From assembly GCA_965113315.1 (NCBI GenBank), contig OZ220373.1: a DNA stretch of 64,000 nt, one strand, 5' to 3'. The stretch is from Podarcis vaucheri. Its lineage: Eukaryota. Shown here one piece after another: positions 3,111 through 52,227 of this stretch (positions are counted from its first letter, which is position 1; every line of letters begins with the position of its first letter). The notes under the pieces were generated by a model. The model was not told the origin of the DNA, did no database searches, and saw only the letters and a program-made list of their open reading frames with translations. Position numbers and translations under genes: made by a program.

Positions 3111-3174
3111 CTGCCACCATATAATAAAGAGGATACACTCACAAGATAGCTTAAGGTTAACTTAGATTCCTTAC

Positions 3175-6854: not shown

Positions 6855-6975
6855 TCACAGAATCTTAGAGTTGGAAGGGACCCCAACCCCCTGCAATGCA
6901 AAAATCTCAACTAAAGTGTCTATGACAGATGGCCATCTAACCTCCGTTTATAACCTGTTTAAAAACCTCCAAGGT
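6855..6975 (-). mobile_element. CR1 LINE 3' end fragment
   Basis: AGAATCTTAGAGTTGGAAGGGACCCC...CCCCTGCAATGCA...GACAGATGGCCATCTAACCTC, shared with the other CR1 tails in the window. Confidence 0.65.
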
Positions 6976-8494: not shown

Positions 8495-9008
8495 CCGTAT
8501 TTTTCGTCCCATAGGACGCACCTAGTTTTTTGGGGGGGAAATAAAGGAAAAAATGTTTTCCTTTATTTCCCCCCCCAAAAAAAAAAAAACCAGGTCGGGG
8601 AAACCAAACCAGGTCGGGGAACAGCGGTATGGCGGCGCTGCGCCTCCCCGCTGTCACCCGAGCTTGTGGGGCTGGCGCTGGGGAGAAGCACGCTTCTCCA
8701 AAGCACCAGCCTCCAAACCAGGTCGGGGAACAGCGGGATGGCGGTGCTGCGCCTCCCCGCTATCCCCCAGGCTTGTGGGGCTGGCCGATGTCTGCCCAAA
8801 GCGTGGGGCGCTCTGCTTCAGCGGCCCCGTGCAGCAGGCTGCTATCCGCAGCGTGGGGAGCCCTGCGGGAACCCCCCTCTCGGTGGGCACCGACCCCTCT
8901 CGCTCTCCAAGCTTCAGCGAAAGCCTGTATTCGCCCCATAGGACGCACACAGATTTCCCCTTCATTTTGGGAGGGGGAAAAGTGCGTACTATAGGGCGAA
9001 AAATACAG
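8495..9008. mobile_element. Pogo/Mariner-like non-autonomous DNA element with internal direct repeats
   Basis: TIRs CCGTATTTTTCGTCCCATAG / CTATAGGGCGAAAAATACAG with TA flanks; GC-rich interior with a duplicated ~70-bp unit (CCAAACCAGGTCGGGGAACAGCGG...). Confidence 0.8.
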
Positions 9009-9588
9009 TAAATCTTAATATTCTTGATCCCTGAACTAAAAGGTGCATTGGTAAAAGCTTCAAAGAAAAACAGGATGCAGGTTGCTAAGACTGAAATGGT
9101 TCAGAGTTGGACAGCTGAAACAATAAGTTGCACAATATTGAGATGTGCAGTTGCATAAAGAGCGAGTGTGCAGTCTCTAGATGTTCATAAGTCAGCTTTG
9201 CATATTGTGGAGTTATTCATCCCAATAGTCAGGAGCTGATTAAAATACAGCCAACAAAAAGACAAGAACTTTGAATGCATATTCTATTAGGCAACAGAAT
9301 ATATGATCAGATAACTAATCCATTTTTGGAAGTGCATAAATTCTTTAAATATATAAATACACATCTGGATTCCAAGTTCCCTTTTCTGAAAACAACTGCT
9401 ATTCCGAGTGCATTTAACAAGTGGCTAGCAAATCCAATTTACACATCTTCTGGGCTGTACCAAACACACTACAAGTAGGGGCAGAAAGAAATGTATTGCA
9501 GATTTAAAGGTTCACCATTTACCAATCCTTACAAAAATATACTGCAGGGTTGTTGTAAACCACTTAGACTGAGCTGCAGTATTAACTA

Positions 9589-9934
9589 CCATATTTTTCG
9601 CTCTATAGGACACACTTTTTCCCTTCTAAAAAGTAAGTGGAAATGTGTGTGCGTCTTATGGAGCGACTGCAGGCTGTGCGGCTAAGCCCAAAGCCAGAAC
9701 AGGGAGACGGAGCGCAGCACAGCGCTCCGTCTCGCTGTTCTAGCTTGGGGGTGGCTGCCCTGCGGAGACTTCAAAGGCTGTCCCCGAAGCCAGAACAACA
9801 AGAGGCTATCCAAGAAGCCAGATCCTTCTTGCTGTTCTGGCTTCTGGGGTTCAGAATTTTTTTCTTCTTGTTTCCTCCCCCCCAAACTAGGTGCGTCTTA
9901 TCGTCCGGTGCGTCCTATAGAGCAAAAAATACGG
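9589..9934. mobile_element. Related pogo/Mariner-like MITE, inverted relative to 8495-9008
   Basis: TIRs CCATATTTTTCGCTCTATAGGAC / GTCCTATAGAGCAAAAAATACGG, TA flanks; AAACTAGGTGCGTC is the reverse complement of GACGCACCTAGTTT in the first copy. Confidence 0.8.
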
Positions 9935-11004
9935 TATATAGTGCAGGGCTGTTGTAAAGCACTCTCTCCTATCCAAAGCTTCTTCAAACCAGTAATGTAA
10001 TAAACTTTACATGCTTTGAAATTTACAGTAGTAGGATTCTAATTTAAAGGGTTTCATTCTAATTAAGAAAGTGAGAAGGAACAGAGCTCTTTGTGGCTAC
10101 CTCTTGCACAGTTATTTTGGTTGGAGTGGGTAACAAATCCCAAAGCTGCTTTAAAATCTTGGATTTCTCCGTTATTTTTATGGGCAGCTCTCACCTCTGC
10201 CCCGGAAACATTTTAAAATAGCTTCAGTATGAAGCAGGAAGTGGCCTATGCAGTCCGATTTTGTCTTTATACTTCATAGCTAGAGTCTCTTCCTTCTTTT
10301 CCATGCACTAACTTCCACCCCCCTCCAACCTGGCTTTCTATGATTAATTCCCTGGGTGGAGGTGCTACTGCTTTGTCTACATAAATATAGACATTCTCCT
10401 TGGAGATCATAAATAGAATACAAGATAAGCCATGACAGGCAATACGTGCTGAAGTCAATATTGTCCAGCACCATCAGCTTCTCTTTACCTGGCAAGAAGG
10501 CTCTAGCTGGTTTTTAAAACATTTTGGTACTCTGCAAACACCCACACCCAGAGAGAGAGAAAGAAAATCCTTGACATAATCCAAGCTGCAAAGCAGCAGG
10601 AAATCAGCCAAATATAGATGCAGCAAAGACTAAACTTTGCATAGCAGTGAACTGTTTATTGTGGGAAAATGTTGAGTGTTTACAATTAATAGTATCTACT
10701 CCAGGGGATGTGAAATTCCCTACACTTAGTTTAGCTTTCATAGATGAAATGACATTACTTCACAAGTAGCTGAGATTCAACATGCAACAGTAAATTCAAA
10801 AACACTGTACTTTTATCATAAGCTTACCTGGTCTTTCTGTAACTAGAATTATAAAACACCAGAAATGCAAAACTGATGAAACATATCCTTTCACCCACCA
10901 TTTAACTTGGGTAATGCCAACCAGGTGTTTAGCTAATAATGGAAACTATCTTGGATATGTAACCCTGGCTATCAGTAATCCCTGGTAATGTCACTGGTTT
11001 TGAC

Positions 11005-11200
11005 CAGGGATAGGCAACCTAAGGCCTGTGGGCCAGATGCGGCTCAATTGCCTTCTCAATCTGGCCTGTTGACGGTCTGGGAATCAGCGTGTTTTTACAT
11101 GAGTAGAATGTGTGCTTTTATTTAAAATGCATCTCTGGATTATTTGTGGGGCATAGGAATTCATTCATTTCCCTCCAAAAAATATAGTCCAGCCCACCAC
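11005..11200. mobile_element. hAT-like non-autonomous element fragment
   Basis: Starts CAGGGATAGGCAACCTAAGGCC, reverse complement of the GGCCTTAGGTTGC(T/C)GACCCCTG termini at 38574 and 51341; other end not seen. Confidence 0.5.
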
Positions 11201-14200
11201 ATGGTGGTACCACTGTATTTGGCTTAGAACAAGGAGCCCTGGGTTGAGTAGTCTGCTCAACCATGAAGCTCACTGGGTGACCTTGGGCTAGGATCGCTCT
11301 CTAAGCCTAAAAAATGGTAACAATATTGTAGAGAAAATAAAATGAGAGCAGGAGAAACCATATGTGCCTTCATGAAAGTAGCATATAATCTTAAAATGTA
11401 CCCAAGGTCAATGGAGCTGCCATATGGCTTGCAATGCTCCACAGTTCACACTCCATTAGAAACTAACACAAAATGTGTCCTGACAAGAGTTGTCTGACAA
11501 CATACTTATCCCAGGGATTTTCCCCAAGCACCACCTTGCTCCCATTTAATGAATGCAACTTAACCTTGGAATTTTCCCTGCAGTACATACAAAACTGAAA
11601 ATAGAACTTTTCCCCCAGGATAACTTTGAGCTCATCTGAGGCTTAGGATACTTTTGTGCAAGCTATCTCTGAAGGACCTGACCCCCCCCCCCCAAAAAAA
11701 GACAATATACTAGATACTAGGAAACTTTATCCAAATTTGTTTCCTATTTAGTCTTTGTTCCAGTATAAATTAACATGGAGATAACTAAACCAACAAACCC
11801 AAACACCAAATTTTAATAGTGCTGCGCAATGATAATTGTATTTTTATAACAATTATTTGGGATAGTCAAATCATTTTTAATGTCCTTCAGTTAACGCCAA
11901 AGCAGAATGAAACTATAAACAAGTAAAACCAGTATGGAACTGGCCGGAAGGGCAAGTTCAAGTATCTGCTTTCATTACTTTGGCAAGTAAAAGCATTGTT
12001 TCTGCTTTCTTCCCCCGTCAAATTGGAAGCATGGCACCATTTCTTTTAAAAGTAGCTTCTTACAACATCTTCCGTAACTCTAATCTCTGCAATTTTCAAT
12101 GTATTCTGGCAAGAAACAAGGGATATTTTCCTGACGATTATTCAGCTTCACCACACTTGGTACACAACAGCACCATATGGAACTTTACATACCGGTACCT
12201 GTCACAAGTCATTCATTAGCTGTTAAATTTGGAATACAAGATTAACTGGCACCTGCTTAATGTGGGAGATTATCAGCCAAACCTAACTAATACCACAGAG
12301 CTGTAGGCAAATACTCAGACCACAGAAATACAATGGTAAGGAGGGCTCTGTGGAGAAGAGGCATTTCCTCTCTCTTCTCTCTATTCCTTTGACCAGTCAT
12401 GCCTCAGCTTTAGGTATATGCCTGAGGCTGGTTATACTGTAAATATCAGCATTTTGCCTGCATAGCTTTTACTGTTGCCTTTGCATGATTATAGATCTTA
12501 TTCTTACACTTACTTTATAAGTTGTTGTCTGATTCTTTTTTAAGTGGGGTAATAAAGGGAGAACCAGCTTCATGGCTAGACTTGCTCTAAACAAGGTTTT
12601 ACAGCCCAATACCCAAATGCTTCAATTTTGCTGCTAAGGATGGGACTTTTAGAACTCTTCAATCCATACACGTGGGGGCCTGGAGGGATAAACTGCAATT
12701 AATATAACCTTTCCTACCTATTAAAACCCACCTCACGCTTAACACTCTCTCAGTGCAAATGTTTTCCTATGCACAGTCAAACCAGTTGGCTCACTGCCTG
12801 CCTAATCAGGAAGCAGCAATATGCACAAAATCCCAATTCTCCCTTCACAAAGGTAATCTAGAAGACGCACAAGTCACAGGCTTGCAGTTACTACACATTG
12901 CTGTACACATAAATTTATACCATGAGCCTTTGAGCAAAAATACATACAGCCTCTGTCTGAGAAGTGATGGAAAATCCTAGAGAGCACTTACATCAGCAGG
13001 TGTTATCTGAAACCATCTATTCCCCTATTACTCTTTGATTCCGTACGTAGTTAATAGTTTGCTGCAAGATATGTACGAACAGGAGATGTAGGGGATGTGA
13101 AGCAGCGCCTCTTCCATCACAGCATTCCCACACCACAAATTGCCCTCCAATTCCCTGCCAAAGACAACCTTCTCTCAATTCACTAAACTCCCTCAGCACA
13201 CCTGTCTACCTAATGATAAGCTCCTCAGGCATTTTTTAAAAAGCAGGAAATGCTTTCAACACTCCACTCTCACACCATTCTTCATTGGCTCTGTCATACA
13301 CTTCCAAATATCAGCTTTTGGGGGTAGTGAGCACATTTGGAAACCTGAAAAATCCTCAAGGACATTGCAACAACAGGAAGAACATCTCCCTTCAAGAATG
13401 GGGGCGGGACTGGGACTTATTTTGAATTTTAAAGCCTAATTGCAGCAGGGGAAGAGCACTGTAGCCAACAGAAGCCTTTTTTTCAAGCCAAGCTGTAGCA
13501 TAGGTGACATTTTTGGCAGGAGGAGCACAGCTGGTTAAGGCGTTAGCTTATTTTCTTCACACCTCTCTACCCCACAAAAAGCCCCCTTTGCCACAATTAG
13601 GTTTGAAAAAATGCCTACAAAGCTTCTTTCAAGCCTAATTGCAACCAAGCAATTCTGAGAGGGAGTCCACAGAATTACATCTGCCTTACACCTAGTGATG
13701 TGAGGTGAGAATATTCAGAAATCCTATCCCAACCACACCTACATAGCACCACCCATCTCTGACCAAGCTACTGTTTAAAAGGGGAAGGGGGGAAGAGAAA
13801 ATTTTAATTAGGTTTTTTGTCCTACATGCAATCATATTTAGTACAATCAAGAATGCAGTTTTGCAGATTTGATTTGTAATGGCAGAGGTCATCACAGGCA
13901 GAGAGCAGGTTTAATTCCCATCAAAGGCGCACACCTTTTCTATATATTCCCCTTATAGTAATTAATGGCTGCTATTCACTCTTATGGGAAATAGAAAATT
14001 GCTATTTTTACAATGATGGCAAAGTCTGGCCGACTTCCTCTTGACAGTGGAAATATAAAGCCCACTGAGTGCATTGCACCAGACAAGGCTTCCTTCCCCA
14101 CCTACTTTTGTCACAGCAACAGGTGCTTTACTGTAACTACAAATAAATATACCACACGCATATAGAGGTCCTTTCCTCACAATGCTACTTTAGCCTGCAC

Positions 14201-15194
14201 CCAACTCAGATTTAAGGAGCTTGGAGGGAGCAAAGCAGGAAACATCCCTTAAGGAACAAAATGCAAGACTATCCCATGCAGGCTTGAGTCACACCACTTC
14301 ACCAAAGTTAAACTGTTCTGACATACCTTGGCAGCATTCAGAAAATGCAAACTTAAAATTGACCTTATTTCATCCCAAGTATTTAAAGGTTGACATGTTT
14401 TAAAATGAAGAGTTACAGGGAGAAACTAGCCTCTCTCTATCAACAAAGAATATTTGGACAAGTAAGGCTACAACCCTTTAAGCAACCTTACCTGGAAGTA
14501 AGTCCCAGTGAGCTCAGGGGAGCTTGGTACTGAGTAAACACTAAGCTAGGCAGGGCCTTATTTCGACCACAGTAGGAAAGCTGGTATCAAGCTAATGGTT
14601 AAATATGAAGCTTCAACAGGGGCACTTCACCAACCCAATGTATTTTTTAAAACCCATTATTATTATTCAACGACTACACTTGTTTTTGTTGGAAACACAC
14701 CAACATGAGCATAGATATGACCAGCTACCATCAAGATGTAAAATATTTCATGGTTTCAATGCTTTTAGTTTTGTGCAGTTAAAAAAAAATCAAAACCCCC
14801 AGTAATTTGACATCATCAAAAACTAAATTTATCCTTTTTATTCTCTTCCCATTTTCTCCTCCTCCCACTGCTGTTACCTTCTCTCCCCCCCCCCATTTCC
14901 CATCGAGTAAGCTTTTAAGCTCCTGCGGCAGGGACTTTCACTTTACAAAACACCACACATGCTGACAAATTCTCCTCCTTGCACACTTGGTGACTGCCCC
15001 ACCTTCCTCCCCTCAACGCAAAACAGTGGGGAAGGATTGTGAGAGTGAAAGCGCACCACTGACCGAACTTCACAGCAGGTACACTAACCTACAAACAGGA
15101 AAAAGCAATATATTGTTATCCTAAAAAGCAAAAGTCTCGAGGTGTCACCAACACAAGGTTTATTATCATGGTTAGACTTCTGTGGAAGCCACGT

Positions 15195-15320
15195 CCTGCT
15201 GATAACGCCAAGGTCGCGGGTTCAATCCCCAAATGGGCCATGTGCCTACTCTTGCATTGCAGGGGGTTGGACTAGATGACCCTGGGGGGGAGGAACCCTT
15301 CCAATGCTATAGTTCTATGG
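15195..15320 (+). mobile_element. tRNA-Ile-derived SINE with CR1-like tail (Squam2-like), 5' truncated
   Basis: GCTGATAACGCCAAGGTCGCGGGTTCAATCCCC (tRNA-Ile 3' half with B box) followed by TGCATTGCAGGGGGTTGGACTAGATGACC CR1 tail. Confidence 0.7.
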
Positions 15321-15460
15321 TTGTTTTTTATATAAAAAAAACTTCACTTGTGAGGGGCACATACTCTGCAAATAAAGCAGGGACCACCGACCCAACTTCG
15401 CAGCACCTGAAAGAAGCAACTCTTCTAAGAGACCTGAAGATTAATCTGTCATGGGTTTCG

Positions 15461-15609
15461 AGACCCAAGACTGAGAAAAACGCCAGTCTAAGTTTTTGTG
15501 GAATAAATAAGGAGGTCTATTAAAAATAGTAATAACGGAAGATAAGCATTTAAAAAATATTAATAGTGTTATTAAAACTGCACTTTGTCAGGGTGCGTGT
15601 GTGTATGTG

Positions 15610-15652
<43 letters not shown>

Positions 15653-15930
15653 GGTGAGGTGGGCCGGCGTGGGAATGGGGTCATCCAGGGCTATTTACAA
15701 ATATATATATACACACACACATGCACACACTTTGAGTGTCTGCTCCTGACAAAGCGCACTTTTAATAACGCTATTAATACTTTTTCAATCCTTATTTTCC
15801 GTTATTATTATTTTTAATAGACTTATTTATTCCACAAAAGCTTAGACCGGCGTTTGTTTCTCCATCTCGGGTCTTCTATATATATTTGTAAATAGCCCTG
15901 GAGGACCCCATTCCCACGCCGGCCCACCTC
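15461..15930. repeat. Complex inverted duplication A-(TA)n-B-A'-B' including a (TA)n microsatellite (~15616-15648)
   Basis: 15461-15625 is an imperfect reverse complement of 15701-15874; 15656-15708 is the reverse complement of 15878-15930 with one mismatch. Confidence 0.9.
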
Positions 15931-16480
15931 TCCTCCCTCCCTCCTCGTCCCGCGCACCGCCAGCCAGCCAGCCAGCCCCACCCGCGCGCCCGCCCTCCCT
16001 TCCTCTCAGACCAACCGCCTCGCCTGGTCCCCTCAGTCGCCGGCCGACCCACCTCCGGGCTGATGTAGGAGACGAAGGAGGGCTTGGCTGGCCTGGCCCC
16101 CGCGCCGCCCCCCGCGCCCAGCATGTCTGGCCCCCGCGAACTCCCGGCAGCGGCGGCGGCGCAGCAGCCAGGGCTCCGGCCGGTGCCGGCGGGCGAGGGC
16201 GGCGTCGGCAGCTCCTCCCAGGAGGACTCCGCGGCGTCGGCGTCGTCCTCCAGCGCCGCCCTGCTTCGCCTCACGTAGTTAATCCCTCCCATCGCAGCGA
16301 GCGGCAAGAGCCCACAGTCCCGGCGGCGGCGCACGTGAGCCTCTCCCCCCGCCCTATTAATGCACGAGCTCCGCCCAGCCATCCGCGCCGCCATTGGGCC
16401 GGCAGGAGGTCGATCTCAGGAAGAGGTCCCGCCTATTCTCCCCGCCCTTTCTCGCTCGCTTTGCAGGGAATGGTCGTCAC
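15900..16480 (-). promoter_or_regulatory. MTMR12: MTMR12 CpG island and promoter
   Basis: GC/CpG-rich; CCAAT on minus (16393-16397), GC boxes (16371-16376, ~16442-16447), E-box CACGTG (16332-16337), TATA-like ATTAATAG (~16354-16361). Confidence 0.75.
16053..16124 (-). CDS. MTMR12: MTMR12 coding exon 1 (MLGAGGGAGARPAKPSFVSYISPE)
   Basis: Matches human MLGKGVVGGGGGTKAPKPSFVSYVRPE; GAG|GTGGGT donor; 72 nt, phase 0; inside a CpG island. Confidence 0.9.
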
Positions 16481-16819
16481 GTAAAAAAATGGGTGGGGAA
16501 AAGTGTCATGAGACCAATCACAATATTTATTAGATAAATAAAAAAAATCCGAGGGCTGAACGACAGATACATTACCCAATCAGCAAATGACTGACGGAAC
16601 GGCTTAAAAGGAGAGGTGATTTCCTTGTCCCCTCCCCCCCCCACACCGCCTGGAAATCTGAGCTGTGTTAACTGTAGTGCCGCCGCACGCAAATCTAGTT
16701 TATCATAATGCAAATTTAAGTTGCACGGTTTGTAAAGTTGTGTGCGACTATAAAATTTCCAGGAACCCAAAAACAAAATCAGATGCAAAGTGTTTGTTTT
16801 AAATTGCTATGGGAAATGT

Positions 16820-24171: not shown

Positions 24172-26839
24172 CTAAATAAAACAAAGAGATGTAACAATAA
24201 ACCACTATCCACACTTTAATTTAAAACACGAAATGTAGAATGCCATCAGCTGGTAAGTAGCACATGATAACTTTATGAGCAATGGATGTCTGTTAACACA
24301 GTCTTAAAACTTTGCAGCTCAGAAAATATAAGCAAGTTTAAACCAATACAGCAACTGTTGACGCCTGCAGAAAGCCTTTTAATAAAAAAAGAGTTGCCTA
24401 TATCAATTCACACTGTCATGTTTCTCTCAGTGGAGGCCACGATAGAGTCTAATGTTGTTGTTGTTTCATTAAAAATATGCTTAAGCTATAAATGAACAAA
24501 GGAAATGAATGCAGGCTAGAATCAGATGCAATCTTGGCATGAAAATGGGGTCCTGCTACATAAAAGAGTTGTGCTGCAAAAATATGAAAAAGGCTTGGAC
24601 TGTGAGTTGCCCCTCTGCAGATTTTCACTAATTTCCCCTTTCCCATGTATTCTCCAATGCCCCGTGCCATTCCAGAGAGCCCCCTGATCCTCCATAACAG
24701 ATGGTGGGGGCAAGGGGCTGGAGAGGGAAATTGGTGAACATTGCCTCCCTTCTGCCAACAGGAGCATCACCCAAGCTCCATTCACAAGAAATTAGAATCC
24801 AAGCCAAAGGCAACACACACAAATGTTTGCATACAGTTTCAATAGTCAGGGGTATATATGTGATTATCAGAAACCACCACCTAGCCTTGGTAATACAAAA
24901 CAAAACTACAAATCTGCACACTGCAGAGAACTCAGAGGAGTCTCTTAGCCCATACTGGGTGCATATGCAGAGAACTTGGGGGGAAAGAAATGACTGTCTC
25001 TCACTTCATACCAGACTTTGAAGATGCTCAGAAAAAACAGGCGAGAAACTCACAGCTTCAGAGGATCTCTGAAGCCTACTGAGAAATAAGGGGCTTATCC
25101 CCTGCTCTTCTAAGACTTCTGCACATACCAGGGGCCTTGGGAGTAGCTCAGGGGTTACCATAAAGAATGATCATATCCAAGGCTTGCAAGAATCTGTGGA
25201 GCCCTATCAGTAACATGGGCTGGATTCAACTACCCCAGTGTGCTAGCGGAAGCCAGCACAGGGAATCCCTTTAGTACAAGAGTGCTTTCCCTCCATAATC
25301 TGCTCTGCAGGGTCAGGAGAACCCCCAGAAGAGCAAATGGCTGTGGAAAAGGAGATCGTTCCACCTGGACAGCTGAAATGCTTGTTGCTGACGGAATGCC
25401 TCTCATAGCAGAACCCTGAATTCCACAGGTGAAGGCCTGTGTTGTGCATTAGATGAAGAGCTTACAGGGACATCTTCTGTAGAGCCCACACTCCTTGCAA
25501 ATTTTCATAAATAAAAGGAATGCAAGAGTCATTAGAAAGATCCGGCTCCCCTCAAATTCTTCAAAATTAATACTTATTTTGTGCACTGTTTTGTAATTGC
25601 CCCTGAAGGACAGCATTAGCAATTTAAAATATGTTGGCTATATCCAATAGTTGTGTAAGCAAAGGGAAGCTTGCTTAACCGACTTGTTTAATAATTTACA
25701 AGCATTTCTATACTGCCAACATTAAGAACAAAATATAACATTATTATTATTATTATTACAAGTGCAAAATCAATACAGCTATTTACCCAGGAATTCCTGG
25801 GTGAACAAATAAGTTTTAAGCAGGCACCTAAATGACAATATTGTAGGCACCTGCCTGATGTTCACTGGGAGTACATTAAAAAAGTGCAGATACTGCCATA
25901 CTGAAGATTGACAGACGACGAACCACAGGAGAATATAGCAGTGCTAAGAGTGTCTCTTGTGAAAATCCAAGTGACTAGGCTTAGGGTACCCAAGGTATCA
26001 TATTTTTCCCCTCCTCTTGCTGAATGTCTTGTCTCATAAACTGCATCTAGAGGGTAAAGGACTCTTCATAAAAAGTGGGGGCACTAGAGGAGGGAGGAAT
26101 TACCCTAAATCAGGCAGAAATATTTTGTGTCAGTGGGATCTCTGCATATAAAAAGGGAAATATACTTCTTTGGCCCAAATGCCTTAAAAAGACAGAATCA
26201 AAATTACGGGAAATACAGATTTACGTAATCAACACGTGTGTCTTGTATGAGCACAAGGAGCTCTTTGGATTGAAGCTATGAGGCATCACAACGGCCAGCA
26301 AATAAATCCAGCTGCTTAAGTGAAGTATAAAATTTCAAAGTTGCAAGGATATTCAAAAGAATTTCATGCATAATTCTGAGAACACAGAGAATCGGCAATT
26401 AAATGTTTGATTGGTTTTTTAATCATTTTTATTGATACTTTAATATTTCTTGTAAATCACTTATAAGTTTCACAACAATCAAATGGTATGTAAATCTTGT
26501 TTAAAAAATGAGAATGAGGCCTTCTGGTTCAGAAGCTCTCTCACACGTTTGCCTTATATCATGGTTCTTTAGAGGAAAATGTGTTTCAAAATGTTTTGCT
26601 TTGTCCTGTCCTGATATTATGGATACCCTCACTTCTGAAACAAATGAATGCCTTCAAATAAATTTAAGGAAATGAGCACCAGAAATCTCTATTGTCATTT
26701 TGGTGTCTGTTGAATACTTCCCTTTCAACAAGGCTACTAAGCAGATTATTGTCCTAGTCAGTATCTGTATTGGTTTTGCAACTGTTTTTATGTATGAAAT
26801 TGTTTTATTGCATTGTGAAATAACTTAAGAGATGCTTCA

Positions 26840-26998
<159 letters not shown>

Positions 26999-27780: not shown

Positions 27781-27992
27781 NNNNNNNNNNNNNNNNNNNN
27801 NNNNNNNNNNNNNNNNNNNNNNNNNNNNNNNNNNNNNNNNNNNNNNNNNNNNNNNNNNNNNNNNNNNNNNNNNNNNNNNNNNNNNNNNNNNNNNNNNNNN
27901 NNNNNNNNNNNNNNNNNNNNNNNNNNNNNNNNNNNNNNNNNNNNNNNNNNNNNNNNNNNNNNNNNNNNNNNNNNNNNNNNNNNNNNNNNNNN
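27781..27992. other. ZFR: 212-nt N run; probably hides ZFR exon 16 ([33 protein letters not shown] in human)
   Basis: Exon 15 ends in phase 1 and exon 17 starts in phase 0, so an exon of about 98 nt is required; no matching sequence seen elsewhere between 26981 and 32415. Confidence 0.8.
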
Positions 27993-30900
27993 TCACACGT
28001 GCCATTTATATTGCAATCCCTATCTCCAATGTATTCGTATTCAGTAGTAATAATCCCTTAATCTGTATGTGGTCATTGAGCCCAATACAAAAGGTAATAC
28101 AAGAGCATAATGCAAGGTTAGCTCTCAATCTTATTTTTTTTATGTCCATCTATTTGTGAAAAAAAATCCTCTGGAAAAATAAATTTCCCCTAAAATTAAA
28201 ATGTTGAAGGAAGAATGGTTGGACACAGTGCACCAGCACAGGAAACACAAGACAGAAGGAACACAAAAATCCACTTGAATGAAGCAAAAGTTACAACAAA
28301 CTGTGAGCAAAATCTATTGTGAAGTTCTTCTGTGTGGGCCCCACTGAACTGAATGGGCATTTCTGTTAAGTTCCCATCCATTTTAATGGTGCTTGTGCAG
28401 AACAACTTCCCAGTGGATTGTGCCCTGTGTTTGTTGGGACAACTTAAAATGGCCGCATGCTACCTTAGTCTTAGTCCTAGTTAATGGGTCAAAATTCTTC
28501 CTGAGCAGTCAAGACCCATGATGTACTAGGATACCTCCCATTAAGGTAAGGTAAAACTATACTTATAGAAACAATCCAGATTTTTTGGTTTTATGGAGTC
28601 TGAAGGGATGTGAAATACTTTGTAAAATTCAAGTCAAGAGCACCTCTACATTTTTGTATTTCTTAAACCCTCTAGGCTCCTATTGCACCAAGGCGCATGC
28701 TGTGTATATCCATCCCAATTTCATCCAGGGGTATACCAGAAGAAAACAAGAAAGAGGGGTCTTAAGAGAAGGAAGTAGAGGAAAAATCAAAACCAGGAAA
28801 AGCAGAAGCAACAGCAGTGATAGAAAGAACAACACTGCATCTGGTAAATTCTTATTTTCCAAACAAGGCTTTTGTGTCAGTTATAATTACTGCTCCTAAA
28901 TATGTTGTAACTGCCTGCTGAGCAGCCAAGAGTATTTCTAGATATTTTTTAATTTTCTGCTAATACAAAATTGCTGTTAAAATAAATGTTGAATGCAACC
29001 AGACTTTGCCTGGATTATTTAGCAGATGGGACATTAAAATGTAGTCTAATTTAAGCAAACATACTCATAACAGCAAATCAAAGACTCATGGAACACACCA
29101 ACTAGGAAAAGAACGCAAACCAAGATATTAACAGATTTGGCTTGAAGGTCAGCCATCAATGAAGAGAAACAGGTCAGGAGAATGCAAGCCAGAATTTATA
29201 TAAATGACACTTCCGCTGTGCACAGAATTATTTCAATTTCATTTAGTATGCTATGCCTGAATTGTACACCTCTCATAGGAAATTCATTTGTTTATGCTTA
29301 TATTAATATTTTACCAGTGGGATATAAAAGTCTTAAAACATTTTAGCAATGGGATTTATGCCATTTTAACATGGTGAATTTTATGGGCTATACAGATACA
29401 GTGAAGTGAAAAATGAGTCACATTAGTGAGAGATTTCAAAGCAAATGAAAGAAGACATTAGGATTATAGATGTATCAAGTGAAAGGAGAGAAAATTTAAG
29501 GGAAAAGAATCAACTGAGGCCAAAGTCAGCAGTACGATTTGATAATTGACACATTTAAAGTTCAGTTCATAGTTCTGACAAAATAGGGAGAGTTTATTCT
29601 ACTTTATATAGCTTGTGGGAGCAAGCTTTGTTTCATAAAAACTATTTATACTCTCCTAAAAAACACTTGCAAGAAAATAGCGTTAATGACTCAGTTTAAT
29701 TATCACTGAAGTCCTGGATTATTATTATTTAAATAATAGTATTAAAACACTTGTATTTCGAAGCACTACTTTTTTAAAAAAATAATGATGCAATGATCCA
29801 GAGACCCATATACAACTGACAAGCAAGATTGTGGGTGATCCAGCTTTATTAAGCTGAGATTTGTCATTGACCTCAGTGGGAGATAGAGTGTACCCATTGC
29901 GAATCAACCTTGAAGCCATCAGAAGATGCTGAAGCAGCTATAGAAACTGAGAGCTTATCTGGGCTGGATATCCATTTAAAAGACTTTCCTATATGTGGAT
30001 TTTTGCATAAAGACTCCAAGTGGATTAACCCCTTAAAAACTGGTCCTAAAATTAAATGAATCAGAATTCAAGTGTGCCCTCTTAGCTTCAACCATAGGTT
30101 TTTTTTTTAAAGTGCAGATTATTTTTCTTGTATTCTAAAAATAAGGGGTTAATCTTCAATAAGACATGCTGTGTCCACACTATTTCGTTATTAAAAAGTT
30201 AACAGGTATGACATGCGCTTTCAATTCCAGGTGTGAATTAAGTATTACCCAGTCAACTGTTTCAAAGCTAGTGTGAACACTGCTTAATTCTAGAGAAGAG
30301 AGAGACAAAGACAAGAAGGAAAAAAAAGACAAAACACAAAAGTAACAGTAAATGCTAGGACTATGCAACCAAACCCCCTCAAAAATATGGCAGGTGTGAC
30401 ATTGAGCTTTAGAAAACCTTGGTCAAAAATCCTTCCGATGTCTTGGCAGCAATCCCTGACAGGATTCAATTGTCTCTGCTAGAAGGCTTTGGACCGGGGC
30501 TAATAAGCTAAGGATAAAAAACATAAACATATACACTTTGCTGAAGAAATACATTCCGCAGCATGGGTTACAGAATCTTTATATCCAGAGCAAATTCTGT
30601 AAATTTAACTGTTAAGTGCACAAAACTGTAAAGAAAAAAAATCCTACATGGTTAACAGTTTTGTGTTTACCTTCCCCTTCCCCTTCAGTTTGCAACTGAA
30701 TAGGATTACATAAGATGTTATTCAACCAGCAAATGAAATACATCTACTTAAAATTGGGTTCTTCCAGCAAAGCCTTCCTTGCCACCTGAATTCAACTCCC
30801 AAAAGCCAGCTAGATTCCATCAACCAAGTTAAGACACCGAGCATTAAGAGCTGCAGTTAAGAGTATACTTTTTTTTTGCAGCACATAAACAATGATCTTT

Positions 30901-32415
30901 ATAAAAGTCTTGTTTACTGCAATTTGCAGTTAAACCACATATTTCAGAGGTAAACTTTTTCACATATTCATTTTAAGCTGCTCAGTGTCTTGAAGAAATG
31001 ATTCAAAAAATTTAAAAGCTTTGCTTTCCTCTATTAATATTATCAAACTTAGTATTATCAAACTTAGAATGGCAACTCTAATTAATGTTTGGGTCAGACA
31101 AAAAAATTGAGCTTTATTTCCTTTTGAAGTCAAATCATGAAATTAACTGGCACAGTGAAATGGCATCAAGATCGTGTTCAAAATAGTTGTGCAATTTTCT
31201 ATCCAAATCTTTACGGGTTGCATATAACCAAATGTGATGTCTGACATTCATTCTGTTGTTTGGTAAAGATGAATAAATAAACAGAACTCAGGGCAATCAA
31301 GCAAAGTTATCTGTGATTATTTCAGAATTTAAAAGCCAATGGTATTATGTAAATTTAAGCAGTGTTTTAAAAACCAGGAAGAAAAATCCTATGTACATTA
31401 ATATTCAAGCTTTGTTTTTTTAAGAAAGCTTGCTTCTAGAATAGTTATACTTTTAAAAAATAACATAAGCAATTATTCAAATATTGAAAGCATAATGCTA
31501 AGAATTCATTCCACAGCTGTATGTACACAAGCACACTCACGCTACACTAACAAGAACTTAAATAGAGCCTTACTTCCTATGCTTATGTATTCTTAGCCAG
31601 CAATACCACTGTGCCTGCAAAAAGTTTATTTTGACCAACACAAGACAAAAGAAAAGAAAGTTCATTTTATCTGACCTCTAAATAGAGCCAACATATTGCA
31701 GACATTAAATTATCATGCTTGCTGGCTTAAAAACATTTGTAGCTTTCAAAGAATTATAGAAGAGACCCTAAAGCAACACTGCTGGCACCAGTAGGATCGC
31801 ACAGGTCATAAATACATATTGAGTTTTAAAGTTCCAACATCTACTTAACTGAACTCAGCTATCACTCTTTACTATAAACACACTGCAAATGTACTGCTTA
31901 ATTAAGACACTCCAACCTCAATATTAGGAGCTCTTTGTCTTGCACTCCAGTCCAGAAACCAACCTCAAAAAACTGGAAAAAAATACACATCTTGCTCCAA
32001 GCAAAGCCAGAATCACTTTGAACTTAAAAATTAACTAAGTGCCATATAAGTCAAGGTTAAGACTGATCCAGTTTCAAACATACAATATAATTTCCTGGTG
32101 TAGTTTCTCCCTTAGGGAGGAAGCCTTCTTGATTATCAACTTGCAGGTATTTGAGTCATAAACATTTACTTTTTCCAAAGAAAGACAGGTTTGCACATTT
32201 AAAAAAAAACACCTACATTTTCCAGAAATCTGAGGTTGTTGGTTGCAGTGAATAAGTCTAAAATAGGTTTTGGAAAAACACACAAGACTGCTTGATTTAT
32301 GAATTGCCATTAAATGTGTATCACATGCCAGCATGTTGCCTTCCAGGATTTAATGCCGTTTATGACAGAATGAATAAGCCAATTAAAATAGAGCATTTTT
32401 TAACAGATTCCGAAC

Positions 32416-32557
32416 CTCCATCCCTCATGTTCTCTTCCCGAATCACTGGTGATGTCAACGTGATGGTCACTTGCATTTTAGGTTCCACACAGGAATTCAA
32501 AATGATGGATGCTTCTTGTCCTGCACACTTTATTTCATATTTCTCAGGACTTATTAC
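32416..32557 (-). CDS. ZFR: ZFR exon 15 ([47 protein letters not shown])
   Basis: tttag acceptor, weak GAG|GTTCGG donor; 142 nt, phase 0 to 1. Confidence 0.94.
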
Positions 32558-33645: not shown

Positions 33646-34016
33646 AGGTAAAGGTAAAGGTAAAGGTACCCCTGCCCGTACGGGCCAGTCGTGTCCGACT
33701 CTAGGGCTGTGCGCCCATCTCACTTAAGAGGCTGGGGCCCAGGGCTGTCCAGAGACACTTCCGGATCACGTGGCCAGCGTGACGAAGCTGCTCTGGCGAG
33801 CCGGCACCAGAGCAGCACACGGAAATGCCGTTTGCCTTCCCGCTATACCTTACCTATTTATCTACTTGCACTTAGGGGTGCTTTTGAACTGCTAGGTGGG
33901 CAGGAGCTGGGACCGAAAGACAGGAGCTCACCCCGCCGCGGGGATTCAAACCGCCGACCATACGATTGGCAAGTCCTAGGCACTGAGGTTTTACCCACAG
34001 CGCCACCCGCGTCCCT
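33646..34016 (-). mobile_element. Full-length Sauria SINE
   Basis: Minus strand starts GGGACGCGGGTGGCGCTGTGGGTAAAACC (tRNA-like head, B-box-like GGTTTGAATCCC), ends in (ACCTTT)n; 11-bp TSD AAGGAGTACTA at 33635-33645 and 34017-34027. Confidence 0.92.
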
Positions 34017-34684: not shown

Positions 34685-35013
34685 CTTCTCTACCCTAAAC
34701 GGCCTCGGTCCAGTATATCTGAAGGAGCGTCTCCTCCCCCATCGTTCTGCCCAGACACTGAGGTCCAGCACCGAGGGCCTTCTGGCGGTTCCCTCACTGC
34801 GAGAAGCCAAGTTACAGGGAACCAGGCAGGGGGCCTTCTCGGGAGTGGCACCCTCCCTGTGGAATGCCCTCCCACCAGATGTCAAAGAGAACAACAACTA
34901 CCAGACTTTTAGAAGACATCTGAAAGAGGCCCTGTTTAGGGAAGCTTTTAATGTTTGATCTATTACAGTATTTTTTTTTTTGGAAGCCGCCCAGATGGGC
35001 AGGGTATAAATAA

Positions 35014-46901: not shown

Positions 46902-48471
46902 CTGTAATAGAAAGACAAACACAAGAAATATGATGAAGTTGTAATGAAGCCAGATGCCTAATAGCAAAGCTGCTTAAATTGTCCAAGTTTAAGCGTAGCT
47001 AAAAAAAAGGCTAAACTAAGTCTGAAACACAAGCACAGTGACCAAGAGTTTAAATAAGTCGTGGAATTCCCATTTCTCAAAACCTTTCAATGGGGCCTTT
47101 CACTTTTATGATCTTGGAAAAGCTCAGTTGCGCAAACATCTGGCAAACGTCACAAGGTTAGCGAAATTGGCACTGAACATTAATGTTACTCTAAAGCAAA
47201 ATAATTTAGAGCACAATCTTATGCATGTATACTCATCAGATGTAAATCTCACCAGGAGTTAATTGCCAGGAAAGTGCACAGGATTGCATCCTTAACCAAT
47301 GAACCATTTTTAACAAAATATAATTTTGAGAGAATGTTTTTTTTATGTAAAACAAACTTACATAAACCAGAAGTGGAGAACCTCCAACCCACAGGCCAAA
47401 CCTGCCCTTCCAGGAATCCCCATTTGGTTCTGATGTAGTTTGGGGCAAGCCACACGCTTGAAATCCTTTTGCAAGCAACCTTACAGTGCTCTCTGAACCA
47501 CTGATGTTTGAACGTTTAGAGAGGGCTGTTTGCAAAAGGGCTTTCGAATTGCCCACACTGTGCTTTAAAGTCCGAAAACCAGGGCTTCAAACCAGAGTAA
47601 CCTAATGACAGTGCGACATCAGTTGATTTGACAGGTAGGGAGATACTGGCTAGAAATGCTTACCCACACCTGCTTTAAAGACATGTATAGATCAGTCAGG
47701 TACTTGGTTTTATAGCTATAGTACATCTAAGAAAACTACGATTTCACAACCTCCATATAAAACAACTACTGTGGAGTAAATGCTTCCAAACACTCTGCAG
47801 TGCAATAGAACCAAAGAAACAGAGTCAGACATAGACTCCTAGAATGCTCCCAGGAAATGGAAAGCCTCAAAAAAGCACACCTGAAAATGTATTTGCAGCT
47901 AATTTCCTTCATGGGAAAGTATTTTCATCTCCTACACTAACACATACAGAGAAAAGGCATGTAAGCACCATATTCATGTAATTATAAACATTTAGATCAC
48001 TGGTAAGCAACCTTGATAGCTGTATGGGCCACATTTGTTTGAGGGCTATGTACAAATTAACGCTCCCCCGCACACAGATAGAGGGTAAGGAGGGATGATA
48101 CATGATACCGTCATGTGCCTCTCATGCTCCCCAGCCGACTGGCACTGAAAATCAAGCTTCCTCCACCCCCAGCCCATCAAACAGCTGTTTAGCATGCTGT
48201 GGGAAGAACAACTGTAAGTGAAGGAAGACCCACCGAGAGTCATCCCTGTGCATCTTCTTATCCATATAAACTGGGTTCCCTGCAGCCTGACAAACAGCTC
48301 TTTGACAGGCTGAAAAGAACATGTGGCTGGAGCTGAATCCCAGGATAGAAGGCTAGCAATTTTGTAACAGGCCGCAATAAGGCAGTGCATTGTCAACTTG
48401 CAGGCAGGGACCATTTTCATTCTTGTATTGCATTTAGTAATTTTAGGTGCACTATTTTGTATTACAAGCAT

Positions 48472-48730
48472 AGAAGAAGAAGAAGAAGAAGAGTTTGGAT
48501 TTGATATCCCGCCTTTCACTCCCCTTCAGGAGTCTCAAAGCGGCTAACAATCTCCTTTCCCTTCCTCCCCCACAACAAACACTCTGTGAGGTGAGTGGGG
48601 CTGAGAGACTTCACAGAAGTGTGACTGGCCCAAGGTCACCCAGCAGGTGCATGTGGAGGAGCGGAGACACGAACCCGGTTACCCAGATTACGTGACTACC
48701 GCTCTTAACCACTACACCACACTGGCTCTC
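48472..48730 (-). mobile_element. tRNA-derived CORE/MIR-like SINE with (TTC)n tail (Squam3-like)
   Basis: Minus strand: GAGAGCCAGTGTGGTGTAGTGGTTAAGAGC (A box), GGTTCGTGTCTCC (B-box-like), GGGTGACCTTGGGCCAGTCAC core, (TTC)n tail. Confidence 0.85.
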
Positions 48731-49096
48731 AATGTTGAGTGCAGTTCAATTCCTTCCCACTCACATTTCTGACCATACCATTATCCAGCATCCTGGGTCC
48801 ACCGAACATCTTATTTTAATTGGGCTGTTCAGGGGTAAGGGGCAGAATGGGGTGAGCACACTAGTGTCAAAGTCAGCTACATTAAAAAACTGTTTTTCTC
48901 CACTGATTTCTAGAGGCAGCTCTTACTTCTATTCTGATGACATTTAAATAGGCTGTTTGGGGGAAGGGGTCCTTTTTTGTAGTTTTGGGGTTAATCAGAG
49001 ACACGTGTTTGGTTACTCCTTCCTCATGCATGTGTGGAGCAATTGCGACTACATAACCTCAAACACTCAAAAACAAACTGGTATAAGTGTATATAT

Positions 49097-49132
49097 GATA
49101 TGATATGATATGATGATATGATATGATATGAT
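49097..49132. repeat. (GATAT)n microsatellite
   Basis: Imperfect GATAT tandem array. Confidence 0.8.
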
Positions 49133-51132
49133 AGTATAATTAGGAAAAAAGGGAGATTCAGCTGAATCTACAGAGAAAGTAAGAAAATAATAATAAACAA
49201 CATATCCTTCATGAAACAATCATTCTAGCAACCTTCAATGACAACTCTTATCTTGCAAGAATTGTCCAAGAAAATACCCCCAAAGGATTTTTTTTTTTTG
49301 AAAATGCCATCTTTGAAGAAAAGTTTCAAAGTAGCAACATAATTGTGCATACACTCTCCCCACAAAATGCTTAAATGCAAAACATAAGTAGGCTCACAGA
49401 ATGCTTAAAAAGTGATTTTAGGCAAGTGAAGCCAACATTTTCCTTATTTTGAGAATAATAATAATAATGTCATTCATTATAATAATGATGAATCAGCAAA
49501 TCAAAAGTATATATATCATTTAGAAATATTTGAAATGTTTCATGTGAAGAAAATGTATTTTGTTATGGCACAGAATGAACAGCCTTAACATTATTCTTTC
49601 TAAGGCTGGTATAGTTCTGTTACCACATTTACTTTAGCAAACCTGTTCCCCTTGCGTCTGCCACAACCCGCAGAGCCAGTGATCGAGTTTGCAAGAATTT
49701 ACAAATCGTAGGATTTGACCTCCTGGGTAAAGAAGCCTCCCTCAACCTTGTATTCTGAGGCACACTGGCAAGAACTAGTAACTTCTGCTAATCCCCTTTA
49801 AGCAGAAACTGTGTGCAAAAGGAGACAGTTAAAATACTGTCTCAAACCACCAATTCTTCTCTTCTCTTTGGTCTGAATAATTTCTCATGACAACTGATCT
49901 ATGCATAGCCTGTTCCTTGTTGACTCCATTCTTCTACTAATCCCCCCATACATACATAACTTAGTACTGAATCAACATTTTTAGAGATTCTTTTCATCTG
50001 TGATCATGCCTAGGAAGTTGTGTGCCCCCCCCTTTTCTAATGGGAATCAGTAGTTCTGTCATTTTTATTAGCAATAAGCTATCACTGTCATAGAAACATT
50101 TTGTATCACTATAATACCATGGTAATTCATAGTTTGTAAAATAATTTCTGATGCTCTTCTTTATAGCTGTATTAAAGCATGCCTAAACTCTAGAGAAGTT
50201 TTGACAGAATGGAGGCAACTGTTCTGTTCTAATCACTATTTCTGCATATGGAGTAATTCCATCCTCTACCTAAAGCTTTGCTGTATCTTTGCTGTATTTG
50301 AAGCTCTTCCAAAATAGTATTCTAATTAATTGTGATGAAGTTTAGATCTCTTATAAGAAAAATAAGTAATTTTATATTCCTTTAGAGTTTCAAATAAAAA
50401 GTAATGACCTTTACTTAAAATACAGAGAATGTTGGACATATAGTAAAATCTGGATAAGAAATATAGCAGCCCAGATTTTTTATTTTGCCAGTGAATAAAA
50501 ACCAAGTCCCAACAGATAGGTTTTGTTTTAAAATGTACCAGAGTCATTCAAATTTTTGATTTACAAAGCCCTATACAGCTCAGGACCTCAATATCCCAAT
50601 GAAATACTTCTCCACCTTTCACCAATTTTATTTGGCATGCCATTACAGTCATCTTGGGGTCAAGATAACCTGGCCACTGTAGTACATGCCCTGCTAACCT
50701 TGAGAATAGATTACTATAATACGCTCTACCTGGGGCTTCCCGTGGCCCTGGTCCAGAAACTTAACCTGGAGCAGAATGAAATGGCAATGCTGCGTGATGG
50801 GGGAGGACAGCCGACAGCATGCGACAGCCTTGCTATAAAAAATTCTACATCAGCTGCTTGTAGGCCATAGAGCCAGGTTCAGGGTTCTTGTATAAATCAT
50901 TACTGAGATAATTTTGTATTGTTTCTACAGTATATGATGTTTTATTGTATTCACATATAACAGTATATTCCACACTGTCTTGCTATTTTATTTGAGTGGA
51001 CAATATATAAACAAATATAAAATACATTCTATATTGTTGTTTTATTGTTAAAGGTGAGGGTGGCTTTTTGTTATATATGCCACCTAAATAAGTTCTGTAT
51101 GAGGCACTAACTGTTTTCCATAGGCTATAGAG

Positions 51133-51341
51133 CAGGGGTCAGCAAGGTTAACCTTGCCTGGTCCAGCATCTGCGTTGACGTGATTTCCAGCACTGCGGAA
51201 GCAAGTCCCCGTGCCATGCTGGTTTAGTGCAGCGTGCGGGGACTCACCAAGTAGGTGGCTTGGTTGGGGGCGGGGCGGGAGCTGGTTAATCGACCCCCGT
51301 GGGCCGCTTGCGGCCCATGGGCCTTAGGTTGCCGACCCCTG
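51133..51341. mobile_element. hAT MITE
   Basis: TIRs CAGGGGTCAGCAA / TTGCCGACCCCTG; 8-bp TSD CTATAGAG/CTATACAG. Confidence 0.82.
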
Positions 51342-52091
51342 CTATACAGTCAACAAAATGCAAGAAATGAGCAGTGAATTTCTGAGAAGTGGCAACAATA
51401 TTATTTCCAGTAATTACAGAACTGGAAAATCTATTTGGGCTTTCGACAATTCAGAGTTGTACTTCTTCAAATGGAACATTGGAAAGGCAGATTTGGCAAG
51501 TCTGCAAGTACAACTGTTACACTGTGGCTAGAGAGAATTCCATCACGTTAGAAATCTTACACAGGAAACAGAATACCCATGCATTATTATTAAGACTCAA
51601 GACCAAATAATGGAGAAGTCTGTAAAGTATATTTCTGCTGTACTATGTAAAACGCCGAATCAAGCGAAATAAACTGAAGGTTGGCTACATACCTTTCAAA
51701 AATGTTATTTCCAACAATATGGACAAGATCTCAAGCACCATGCAGAATACATGTAGATGCACATTTCCCCATTTCAAAAAGCCATTCTAATTTCAGGAAA
51801 CCACTTCACAAGGAGGAAGCACCCCTAGCCCTCTCCCCAGATTTGAATAGCTTTGCACATGCAGTTCTTTGGATCTCAGCCTCTGTTTATATCAGAAATG
51901 TACACTTTTAAGACTGTGCCATGAAATATGCAAGTGTTTACCATGAAAAAGCAACTGATTTTAGTTAATAAAATACAGTTCCAATTATTAAAACCTAAGA
52001 GGTGTAGGTATGACCTAGCAGCTGTAAATAATCCTGAAACAATAAAAGCATTCTATGTGGATATTCATTTGAAGCAAGAGAATGATTAGAC

Positions 52092-52227
52092 CAGGCATCC
52101 CCAACCTCTGGCCCTCCAGATGTTTTGGACTACAATTCCCATCATCCCTGACGGCTGGTCCTGTTAGCTAGGGATCATGGGAGTTGTAGGCCAAAACATC
52201 TGGAGGGCCGCAGGTTGGGGATGCCTG
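52092..52227. mobile_element. Palindromic hAT MITE
   Basis: CAGGCATCCCCAACCT...AGGTTGGGGATGCCTG with perfect 8-bp TSD GATTAGAC (52084-52091, 52228-52235). Confidence 0.9.

What the first reader, a model, noticed from the sequence alone, without database searches (positions are those of the whole stretch)
27993..32415. ZFR intron 15 looks like an AS-NMD control module: weak donor, few repeats, several stop-introducing splice options
Seen: ~4.4 kb with no young TE that I can recognise, unlike neighbouring introns 13 and 14; a weak 5' splice site (GAG|GTTCGG); and at least five minus-strand acceptor-like sites (31614, 30507, 30289, 28760, 28062). Each would introduce a stop or frameshift when joined to exon 15, well upstream of the last junction. 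Known: RNA-binding-protein genes commonly self-regulate through conserved poison exons near ultraconserved elements, and ZFR is a splicing/editing regulator. Inference: a multi-exon rheostat for ZFR level, or a way to make DZF-truncated isoforms. This is my best candidate for an undescribed system here, but it rests on splice motifs only.
Basis: partly seen in the sequence, partly recalled or inferred. Interest (0 to 1): 0.7.

Follow-up and report, generated by a model that had tools for sequence, protein, structure and literature searches.

The report
Conserved splicing brake in ZFR intron
This reptile intron in the gene for the splicing regulator ZFR sits where humans and mice have a slowly spliced intron beside an exon whose skipping destroys the message, so it is likely the same known control switch, and three cryptic splice sites inside it recur in other animals and may act as decoys.

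Summary
The gene is ZFR, probably of a squamate, and the coordinates are right. The exon 15 donor is weak and the intron has no young repeats. The control module is real but largely known. In supplementary tables the human and mouse intron is a detained intron, and skipping the 98-nt exon behind it is an NMD event (median 17.7% in GTEx). Here the exon 15-to-17 join stops after one codon, and 13 of 217 ZFR proteins from a lizard, a bird, marsupials and placentals end that way. Use is not shown: 29 RNA reads on the lower intron gave no junction. Autoregulation is untested. The scan had no earlier ZFR finding. Verdict: new member of a known kind, interest 0.3.

The parts
32416..32557 (-). ZFR exon 15, 142 nt, encodes part of DZF_N, ends in phase 1
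   Evidence: 96% identical to lizard and snake ZFR; exon ends at residue 880 of a 1074-aa ZFR, DZF_N spans 720-917
32410..32418 (-). weak exon 15 donor with a non-consensus T at +3; likely kept across amniotes
   Evidence: 4.7 bits, third lowest of 17 GT donors; read-through tails start Gly-Trp in mammals and birds and Gly-Ser in Varanus, which fits GTT after the exon (back-translation, inferred)
27993..32415 (-). readable part of intron 15, orthologue of the human/mouse ZFR detained intron; AT-rich, no young repeats
   Evidence: human chr5:32380278-32383866 and mouse Zfr_intron_16 listed as detained; first ~100 nt resemble mammalian read-through tails, 0 of 40 shuffles reach the score
31574..31614 (-). 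candidate 41-nt stop-codon cassette: weak acceptor (5.2 bits), best donor in the intron (7.7 bits)
   Evidence: its donor lies 4593 nt before exon 17, the internal boundary of the human detained intron lies 4549 nt before it (positional hint only)
   Evidence: narwhal gene model P0056 leaves exon 15 for a 10-aa tail whose best match is exactly here and in the right phase, score 34, 0 of 60 shuffles
30475..30507 (-). acceptor 30507 (7.6 bits) and the start of the exon behind it; stop after 2 codons
   Evidence: bird gene model P0106 leaves exon 15 for a tail with 9 of 9 residues identical to the translation from 30501, score 49, 0 of 60 shuffles; the frame differs from the one the window's acceptor gives
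30249..30289 (-). candidate 41-nt cassette with the strongest acceptor in the intron (12.2 bits) and a weak donor (under 4 bits); decoy-like
   Evidence: lizard gene model P0010 uses it, 12 of 14 residues identical, score 64, 0 of 60 shuffles; RNA depth peaks just behind it but no junction seen, 1-nt insertion in 5 of 7 reads of a relative; predicted hairpin over exon and donor, z -3.15
28672..28760 (-). acceptor 28760 (8.8 bits) with 29 open codons; no support for use
   Evidence: no protein tail matches it; zero read depth in the bin 28722-28802
27781..27992 (-). unreadable stretch in which exon 16 (98 nt in human, the NMD-switch exon) is inferred to lie
   Evidence: canonical ZFR proteins have 33 residues between exons 15 and 17; best score in the readable introns 29 against a self score of 177; phases require a length of 3n+2. 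The letters were not seen.
26885..26980 (-). ZFR exon 17; joining exon 15 directly to it gives one glycine and then a stop
   Evidence: 13 of 217 proteins with a full exon 15 end show that ending

Best explanation
This is intron 15 of ZFR, and it likely works as in human and mouse: a slowly spliced (detained) intron that holds ZFR messages until they are either spliced productively or lose exon 16, which creates an immediate stop and is predicted to trigger nonsense-mediated decay. Shown here: a weak donor, no young repeats, and a stop one codon after the exon 15-to-17 join. Shown in mammals: detention of the intron and regulated skipping of the exon. Inferred: both also happen in this animal; the weak donor slows splicing; a few conserved internal acceptors (30850, 30507, 30289, perhaps 31614) engage the spliceosome as decoys that favour detention and are spliced in only rarely, as poison exons. 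Most other acceptor-like sites are background. The output is ZFR dose, not a truncated protein. Which protein controls the switch is untested; an ILF2-containing DZF dimer is my first guess.
For: Human ZFR detained intron chr5:32380278-32383866 next to the 'NMD-Skipped FS' exon 32380181-32380278, and mouse Zfr_intron_16, 4529 nt (Boutz 2015 supplements). The same exon is an annotated essential exon with median skipping 0.177, z -23 and -31 for the fall in expression, lower in muscle, blood, brain and heart (Mironov 2023 supplements). Match to this intron: 98 nt fits the phases; exon 15-to-17 distance is 6297 nt in human and 5435 here; the other 98-nt exon (19) follows an intron of about 160 nt. 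13 of 217 proteins end one glycine after exon 15, among them Anolis sagrei X2, Calonectris, four marsupials, Pan and Pongo. 18 of 217 read through the donor, two of them 857-865-aa products of ~3-kb contigs, i.e. upstream exons spliced. Three internal acceptors match tails in other species, each 0 of 60 shuffles. 29 reads, all on the strand expected for ZFR RNA, cover 20 of 30 bins of the lower intron. ILF2 knockdown raises ZFR mRNA about 2.5-fold (Haque preprint).
Against: No direct evidence in this animal: exon 16 is unreadable and no exon or control intron was laid, so 1.6x mean depth cannot be called detention. No joint or loose end reached 3 reads at 30289, 28760 or 28062; the other three runs gave 0 reads, 0 contigs and 1 contig. 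The read peak lies just upstream of a 10-A run at 30108, so internal priming could explain it. The three matching tails come from single predicted gene models (two 'hypothetical', one partial on a 12-kb contig), so they show conserved sequence, not use; searches for more such proteins found none (1 of 207 candidates, the query itself; 0 of 4). Proteins that run into other introns also occur in the clusters, and the exon 15 query biases the count. The one-glycine ending could come from another acceptor in some species. Other ZFR donors are weaker without a known role. ZFR is absent from the searched supplements of the decoy-exon paper. In Haque's data ZFR favours the productive isoform of its targets, which is the wrong sign for simple negative feedback.
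Confidence: 0.7

Rival explanations
1. One reading: a rheostat of several poison exons, each spliced in at appreciable levels and degraded by NMD, is the main control.
For: Two 41-nt frameshifting or stop cassettes with AG and GT ends; three acceptors with conserved sequence; the human detained intron starts 1748 nt inside the intron, which implies an internal splice site.
Against: Acceptor density at chance level and stops trivial. No junction in 3 or more reads at three sites. The NMD catalogue rows found for this region list only exon 16 skipping. 13 proteins show the skip ending against one each for three internal sites, of 217.
Confidence: 0.12
2. The switch is only exon 16 skipping plus detention set by the terminal splice sites; the conserved internal blocks are protein-binding or enhancer elements and their AGs are incidental.
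For: No use of an internal site shown. Detained introns are more conserved and have weaker splice sites as a class. Gene predictors choose any good AG when downstream exons are missing. This rival shares its core with the best explanation and differs only in the decoy step.
Against: In all three cases the foreign tail begins at, or within a few bases of, an AG that is also present here. 30289 has a long pyrimidine tract (12.2 bits). The human detained intron has an internal boundary.
Confidence: 0.35
3. In this reptile the intron is ordinary: the mammalian switch is not used and the conserved patches are slowly evolving sequence in a conserved gene.
For: No species-specific junction or detention data; motif counts, long-range duplexes and Rfam matches all at chance level.
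Against: A lizard RefSeq isoform and a bird isoform have the skip-type ending; the weak donor looks kept across amniotes; the intron lacks the young repeats that its neighbours carry.
Confidence: 0.12
4. The intron makes stable truncated ZFR proteins (zinc fingers without a full DZF domain) through an alternative last exon, for example at 28760 or 30289.
For: Open frames of 29 and 36 codons and poly(A)-signal hexamers downstream; read depth peaks behind 30289; truncated models such as P0003 lack DZF_C.
Against: No place where many molecules end was reported. No protein tail matches 28760. A 1-nt insertion in a relative breaks the 30289 frame. ZFR that cannot bind ILF2 is poorly expressed. The published short ZFR isoforms come from an alternative promoter and keep the DZF domain.
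Confidence: 0.06

Closest known systems
Human and mouse ZFR detained intron with NMD-skipped 98-nt exon (Boutz 2015, PMC4281565, supplement rows and passages; Mironov 2023, PMC10123112, supplement rows and passages)
   Same: Same gene, same intron by phase and spacing, same one-codon stop on skipping, weak donor.
   Different: Detention and skipping are measured in mammals but not here. In print it is a table row: ZFR is not named in Mironov's main text, and I found no mechanistic study or description of internal cassettes in nine searches.
Decoy-exon-driven intron retention in SF3B1 intron 4, OGT intron 4, ARGLU1 intron 2 (Parra 2018, PMC6097662, passages)
   Same: Intron over 1 kb in an RNA-regulator gene, with several conserved non-coding cassettes that would cause NMD if included.
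   Different: There the decoys were shown by leaky junctions, U2AF binding and minigene deletion; none of that is shown here, and ZFR is not in the searched supplements.
Essential (NMD-on-skipping) exons of PTBP1, PTBP2, FUS and RBM10 (as described in PMC10123112, passages)
   Same: A frameshifting coding exon whose skipping lowers gene output.
   Different: Those have known self- or cross-regulators; none is established for ZFR exon 16.
Ultraconserved poison exons of SR-protein genes (as described in the Haque preprint 10.1101/2022.06.15.495552, passages; Ni 2007 and Lareau 2007 recalled, not read)
   Same: ZFR is named as a gene with an exon in an ultraconserved element and regulates such exons in other genes.
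   Different: The documented ZFR event is NMD on skipping, not on inclusion. Which ZFR exon is the ultraconserved one was not established from a paper I could read.

Membership tests
Detained introns (Boutz 2015) | Intron more abundant than the gene's other introns in poly(A) RNA | tested here: inconclusive
   29 sense reads, mean 1.6x on 2.4 kb in one run, no exon or control intron laid; met for the human and mouse orthologues
Detained introns (Boutz 2015) | Nuclear and insensitive to NMD | not testable with these tools
   needs fractionation and NMD inhibition
Detained introns (Boutz 2015) | Weaker splice sites and higher conservation than other introns (class trend) | tested here: met
   donor third weakest of 17 on an approximate matrix; four conserved patches seen through protein tails; no base-level conservation track available
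NMD-switch (essential) exon | Skipping shifts the frame and places a stop more than 50 nt upstream of the last junction | tested here: met
   exon 15-to-17 join stops after one codon, with about 300 coding nt and three junctions downstream
NMD-switch (essential) exon | The skipped form is made and is stabilised by NMD inhibition | tested here: inconclusive
Decoy exons (Parra 2018) | Conserved non-coding cassette inside a long retained intron | tested here: met
   30850, 30507 and 30289 match tails from narwhal, bird and lizard models, each 0 of 60 shuffles; one species per site
Decoy exons (Parra 2018) | Leaky splice junctions to the cassette | tested here: inconclusive
   none in 3 or more reads at depth about 7-10 for 30289, NMD not blocked; 31614, 30850 and 30507 not covered
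Decoy exons (Parra 2018) | Deleting or blocking the cassette lowers retention; U2AF binds its acceptor | not testable with these tools
   needs minigenes, antisense oligos or CLIP
Autoregulatory poison exon | Inclusion depends on the gene's own product | not testable with these tools
   'autoregulat' does not occur in either ZFR paper's main text; ILF2 knockdown raises ZFR mRNA
Autoregulatory poison exon | Splice-site signals stand out from background | tested here: not met
   acceptor counts equal or below shuffles and the antisense strand

The most novel reading that the evidence does not exclude
ZFR intron 15 carries an amniote-wide chain of decoy acceptors (31614, 30850, 30507, 30289) that hold the message in the nucleus and set exon 16 skipping, and an ILF2-containing DZF dimer reads this intron, partly through local double-stranded RNA such as the hairpin over 30289-30168, so that ZFR output is matched to the supply of its partner ILF2. 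This would be a feedback loop for a dsRNA-binding splicing regulator that has not been described.
Probability: 0.25. Interest if true: 0.55.

Novelty: new member of a known kind. Interest (0 to 1): 0.3.

Why it matters
ZFR controls many splicing events, among them other ultraconserved NMD exons and macroH2A1, and dampens the interferon response, yet I found no account of how its own level is set. About 18% of human ZFR transcripts skip this exon at steady state, and the share varies by tissue. The finding extends the switch to reptiles by inference and names three or four specific internal sites that can be blocked or deleted to test a decoy mechanism. The kind of system is well known, so the gain is a testable instance, not a new principle.

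Tried and rejected
Acceptor enrichment: none. Long repeats or inverted repeats: only short chance-like pairs. Long-range RNA duplexes: best -33.6 kcal/mol against -30.8 to -34.2 in 8 shuffles; local folds with z<=-2 in 5 of 70 windows against 4 of 89 in two control introns; 63 nt of the intron were not included. The 30289 hairpin passes alone (0 of 200 shuffles) but was picked from 70 windows, and the relative's change at 30257 (9 of 9 reads) breaks one of its pairs by my reading. Rfam: nothing at gathering score in the intron; three matches at E 0.4-0.75 are chance. Genome relatives: none held, so no DNA alignment across species. Run search: no RNA holder listed; 14 contig runs guessed to be RNA hold 0.42-0.74 of the words, but the one high-share run laid gave no contig, so this is not used as evidence. 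Single-cell run X21 gave 0 reads, no test. More proteins with the 30289 or 30507 tails: none. I first matched the narwhal tail by eye to 31614; the scored match is 30850. Seven other tails scored had no match above shuffles worth keeping, and one bird read-through tail matched the intron's start. Supplement searches without ZFR: PMC7726792, PMC6547761, PMC6097662, PMC13247117 (one file unread in two of them). Ni 2007 and the journal version of Haque 2023 are not held; 'uc.151' with 'ZFR' gave 0 papers, so my recollection that uc.151 covers exon 16 is unverified and not used. Earlier scan notes: none on ZFR, no look-alike window.
Full report
Setting. The window is part of a 1.61-Gb genome. The gene is ZFR on the minus strand; exon 15's 47 residues are 96% identical to lizard and snake ZFR and 87% to mammals, so the animal is probably a squamate (inferred). 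Exon ends were set from coordinates: exon 15 is 32557-32416 and ends in phase 1, exon 17 is 26980-26885 and starts in phase 0. Canonical ZFR proteins have 33 residues between them, and nothing in the readable sequence encodes these (best score 29 against 177).

Checking the observation. The donor is GAG|GTTCGG and scores 4.7 bits on an approximate matrix built from recalled frequencies, third lowest of 17 GT donors. The five acceptors exist and score 5.2, 7.6, 12.2, 8.8 and 1.2 bits. They are not more than chance gives: 6 sites at 8 bits or more against 5.5+-2.1 in 100 dinucleotide shuffles and 7 on the other strand; at 6 bits the intron has fewer than shuffles. 228 of 237 AGs give a stop within 50 codons. 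The lack of young repeats holds: the intron is single-copy but for a short relic, whereas introns 13 and 14 carry repeats.

What is already known. In the supplements of Boutz 2015 (PMC4281565; rows seen, one file unread; passages) human ZFR has a detained intron at chr5:32380278-32383866 beside a 98-nt 'NMD-Skipped FS' exon, and mouse Zfr_intron_16 (4529 nt) is also listed. In the supplements of Mironov 2023 (PMC10123112; rows, passages) the same exon is an annotated essential exon between 32385614 and 32379316, skipped at a median 0.177 across GTEx, with a significant fall in expression (z -23 and -31) and less skipping in muscle, blood, brain and heart. I identify it as exon 16 from its length and phase, from the exon 15-to-17 distance (6297 nt in human, 5435 here), and because the only other 98-nt exon follows a short intron. 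The Haque preprint (10.1101/2022.06.15.495552; passages, supplements not seen) says the ZFR locus has an ultraconserved exon, that ZFR binds detained introns and dsRNA and favours productive isoforms of its targets, and that ILF2 knockdown raises ZFR mRNA about 2.5-fold. Neither it nor Haque 2018 (PMC5861047, passages) uses the word autoregulation. Nine literature searches found no study of this intron's inner sites; the library lacks most subscription papers, Ni 2007 and the journal version of Haque 2023 among them.

Evidence from related proteins. A search with exon 15 gave 434 hits, of which 120 were listed; cluster look-ups added 131 (large clusters are listed only in part). Of these 251, 217 have a full exon 15 end: 170 continue canonically, 13 end after one glycine, 7 end at the exon and 27 do something else. 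The exon 15-to-17 join in the window gives exactly one glycine and a stop. The 13 include Anolis sagrei isoform X2, a shearwater, four marsupials, a bat, carnivores, cattle, chimpanzee and orangutan, which fits exon 16 skipping across amniotes, although another acceptor could give the same ending. Eighteen read through the donor. Their first residues imply GTT after the exon in mammals, birds and Varanus, so the weak +3 base looks old, and two are 857-865-aa products of ~3-kb contigs, i.e. spliced upstream and unspliced here. Products that run into other introns occur too, so this is weak evidence for detention.

Conserved internal sites. In each case 0 of 60 shuffled tails scored as well over eight intron segments. 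These models are predictions and show conserved sequence, not use; two further searches found no more of them. The 41-nt cassette at 31614-31574 has the best donor in the intron, and its distance to exon 17 (4593 nt) is close to that of the internal boundary of the human detained intron (4549 nt), a hint only. 28760 and 28062 have no support.

RNA reads. Four runs were laid on 27993-30395. A stranded bulk run of a related or same species (about 12% read) gave 29 reads, all on the strand expected for ZFR RNA, in 20 of 30 bins, mean depth 1.6, peaking at 10.3 over 30180-30260. No joint, loose end or common end reached the tool's thresholds; 12 reads fitted only partly. The peak extends past the weak donor at 30249 and lies upstream of a 10-A run, so it may reflect priming on unspliced RNA. 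Five of 7 reads carry a 1-nt insertion in the 30289 cassette, so its frame is not held. The other runs gave 0 reads, 0 contigs and 1 contig. Reads like human DNA are dropped by the tool, so junctions into a highly conserved exon could be missing. No exon or control intron was covered; the result neither shows detention nor excludes rare inclusion.

Structure. Long-range duplexes and local folding are at background. One hairpin covers the 30289 cassette and its donor (z -3.15), but it was chosen from many windows and a change in the relative breaks a pair. Rfam has no family in the intron.

Mechanism. Most likely (0.7) the weak donor and long conserved intron delay splicing, the message waits in the nucleus, and the outcome is either productive splicing or loss of exon 16 with a stop at about residue 881, inside DZF_N and before DZF_C, followed by NMD. 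The stop and frame are shown; detention and skipping are shown for mammals and inferred here; the decoy role of the internal acceptors, on the SF3B1/OGT model (Parra 2018, PMC6097662, passages), and the regulator are untested.

Verdict. Observation partly confirmed, interpretation partly supported. It works like a detained intron beside an NMD-switch exon, and it is the orthologue of a listed mammalian case; membership among decoy-exon introns is not established. New member of a known kind, interest 0.3. The boldest reading not excluded, decoy-based feedback through an ILF2-containing dimer, has probability about 0.25 and would deserve 0.55. Unseen supplements of Haque 2023 bear directly on it.

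Noticed in passing
window 49558-49694 (-): SNORA66 H/ACA snoRNA in ZFR intron 2, full-length, 118.8 bits. I recall RPL5 as its usual host, so this may be a moved or extra copy.
   Followed up: no
window 35401 (-): A second donor 10 nt upstream of the exon 13 donor (5.7 bits). Mouse Zfr has a 10-nt alternative-donor NMD event that responds to cycloheximide (chr15:12160767-12160776); that it is this one is my inference.
   Followed up: partly
window 54165-54081 (-): Exon 2 is 85 nt, so skipping shifts the frame; a cassette near the 5' end of mouse Zfr (100 nt) is listed as NMD-repressing. ZFR may have three AS-NMD points.
   Followed up: no
window about 24060 (-): Exon 18 appears to end in a GC donor (read from the print); my scripts placed the end one base off, so it was not scored.
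   Followed up: partly
proteins P0010 and P0063: A lizard and a rhinoceros gene model both enter exon 16 through an upstream acceptor that adds about 21-22 nearly identical residues, a sign of strong conservation just before exon 16. Both are hypothetical models; this could not be checked in the window.
   Followed up: partly
window 33646-34016 and 34719-34959: High-copy young repeat of about 365 nt in intron 14 (92-94% identity) and an older piece in intron 13; family not identified.
   Followed up: no
window 28318-28426: Short old repeat relic inside intron 15, overlapping a locally stable fold (z -4.3).
   Followed up: no
window 24172-26884 and 46930-54000 (-): Introns 17 and 2, not 15, have more acceptor-like sites than shuffles (>=8 bits: 11 vs 5.2, and 20 vs 10.3).
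   Followed up: no
window 1-16500 (-): Exons of a downstream gene that I recall as MTMR12; two proteins named myotubularin-related protein 12 fall in a ZFR cluster, which may reflect read-through gene models.
   Followed up: no
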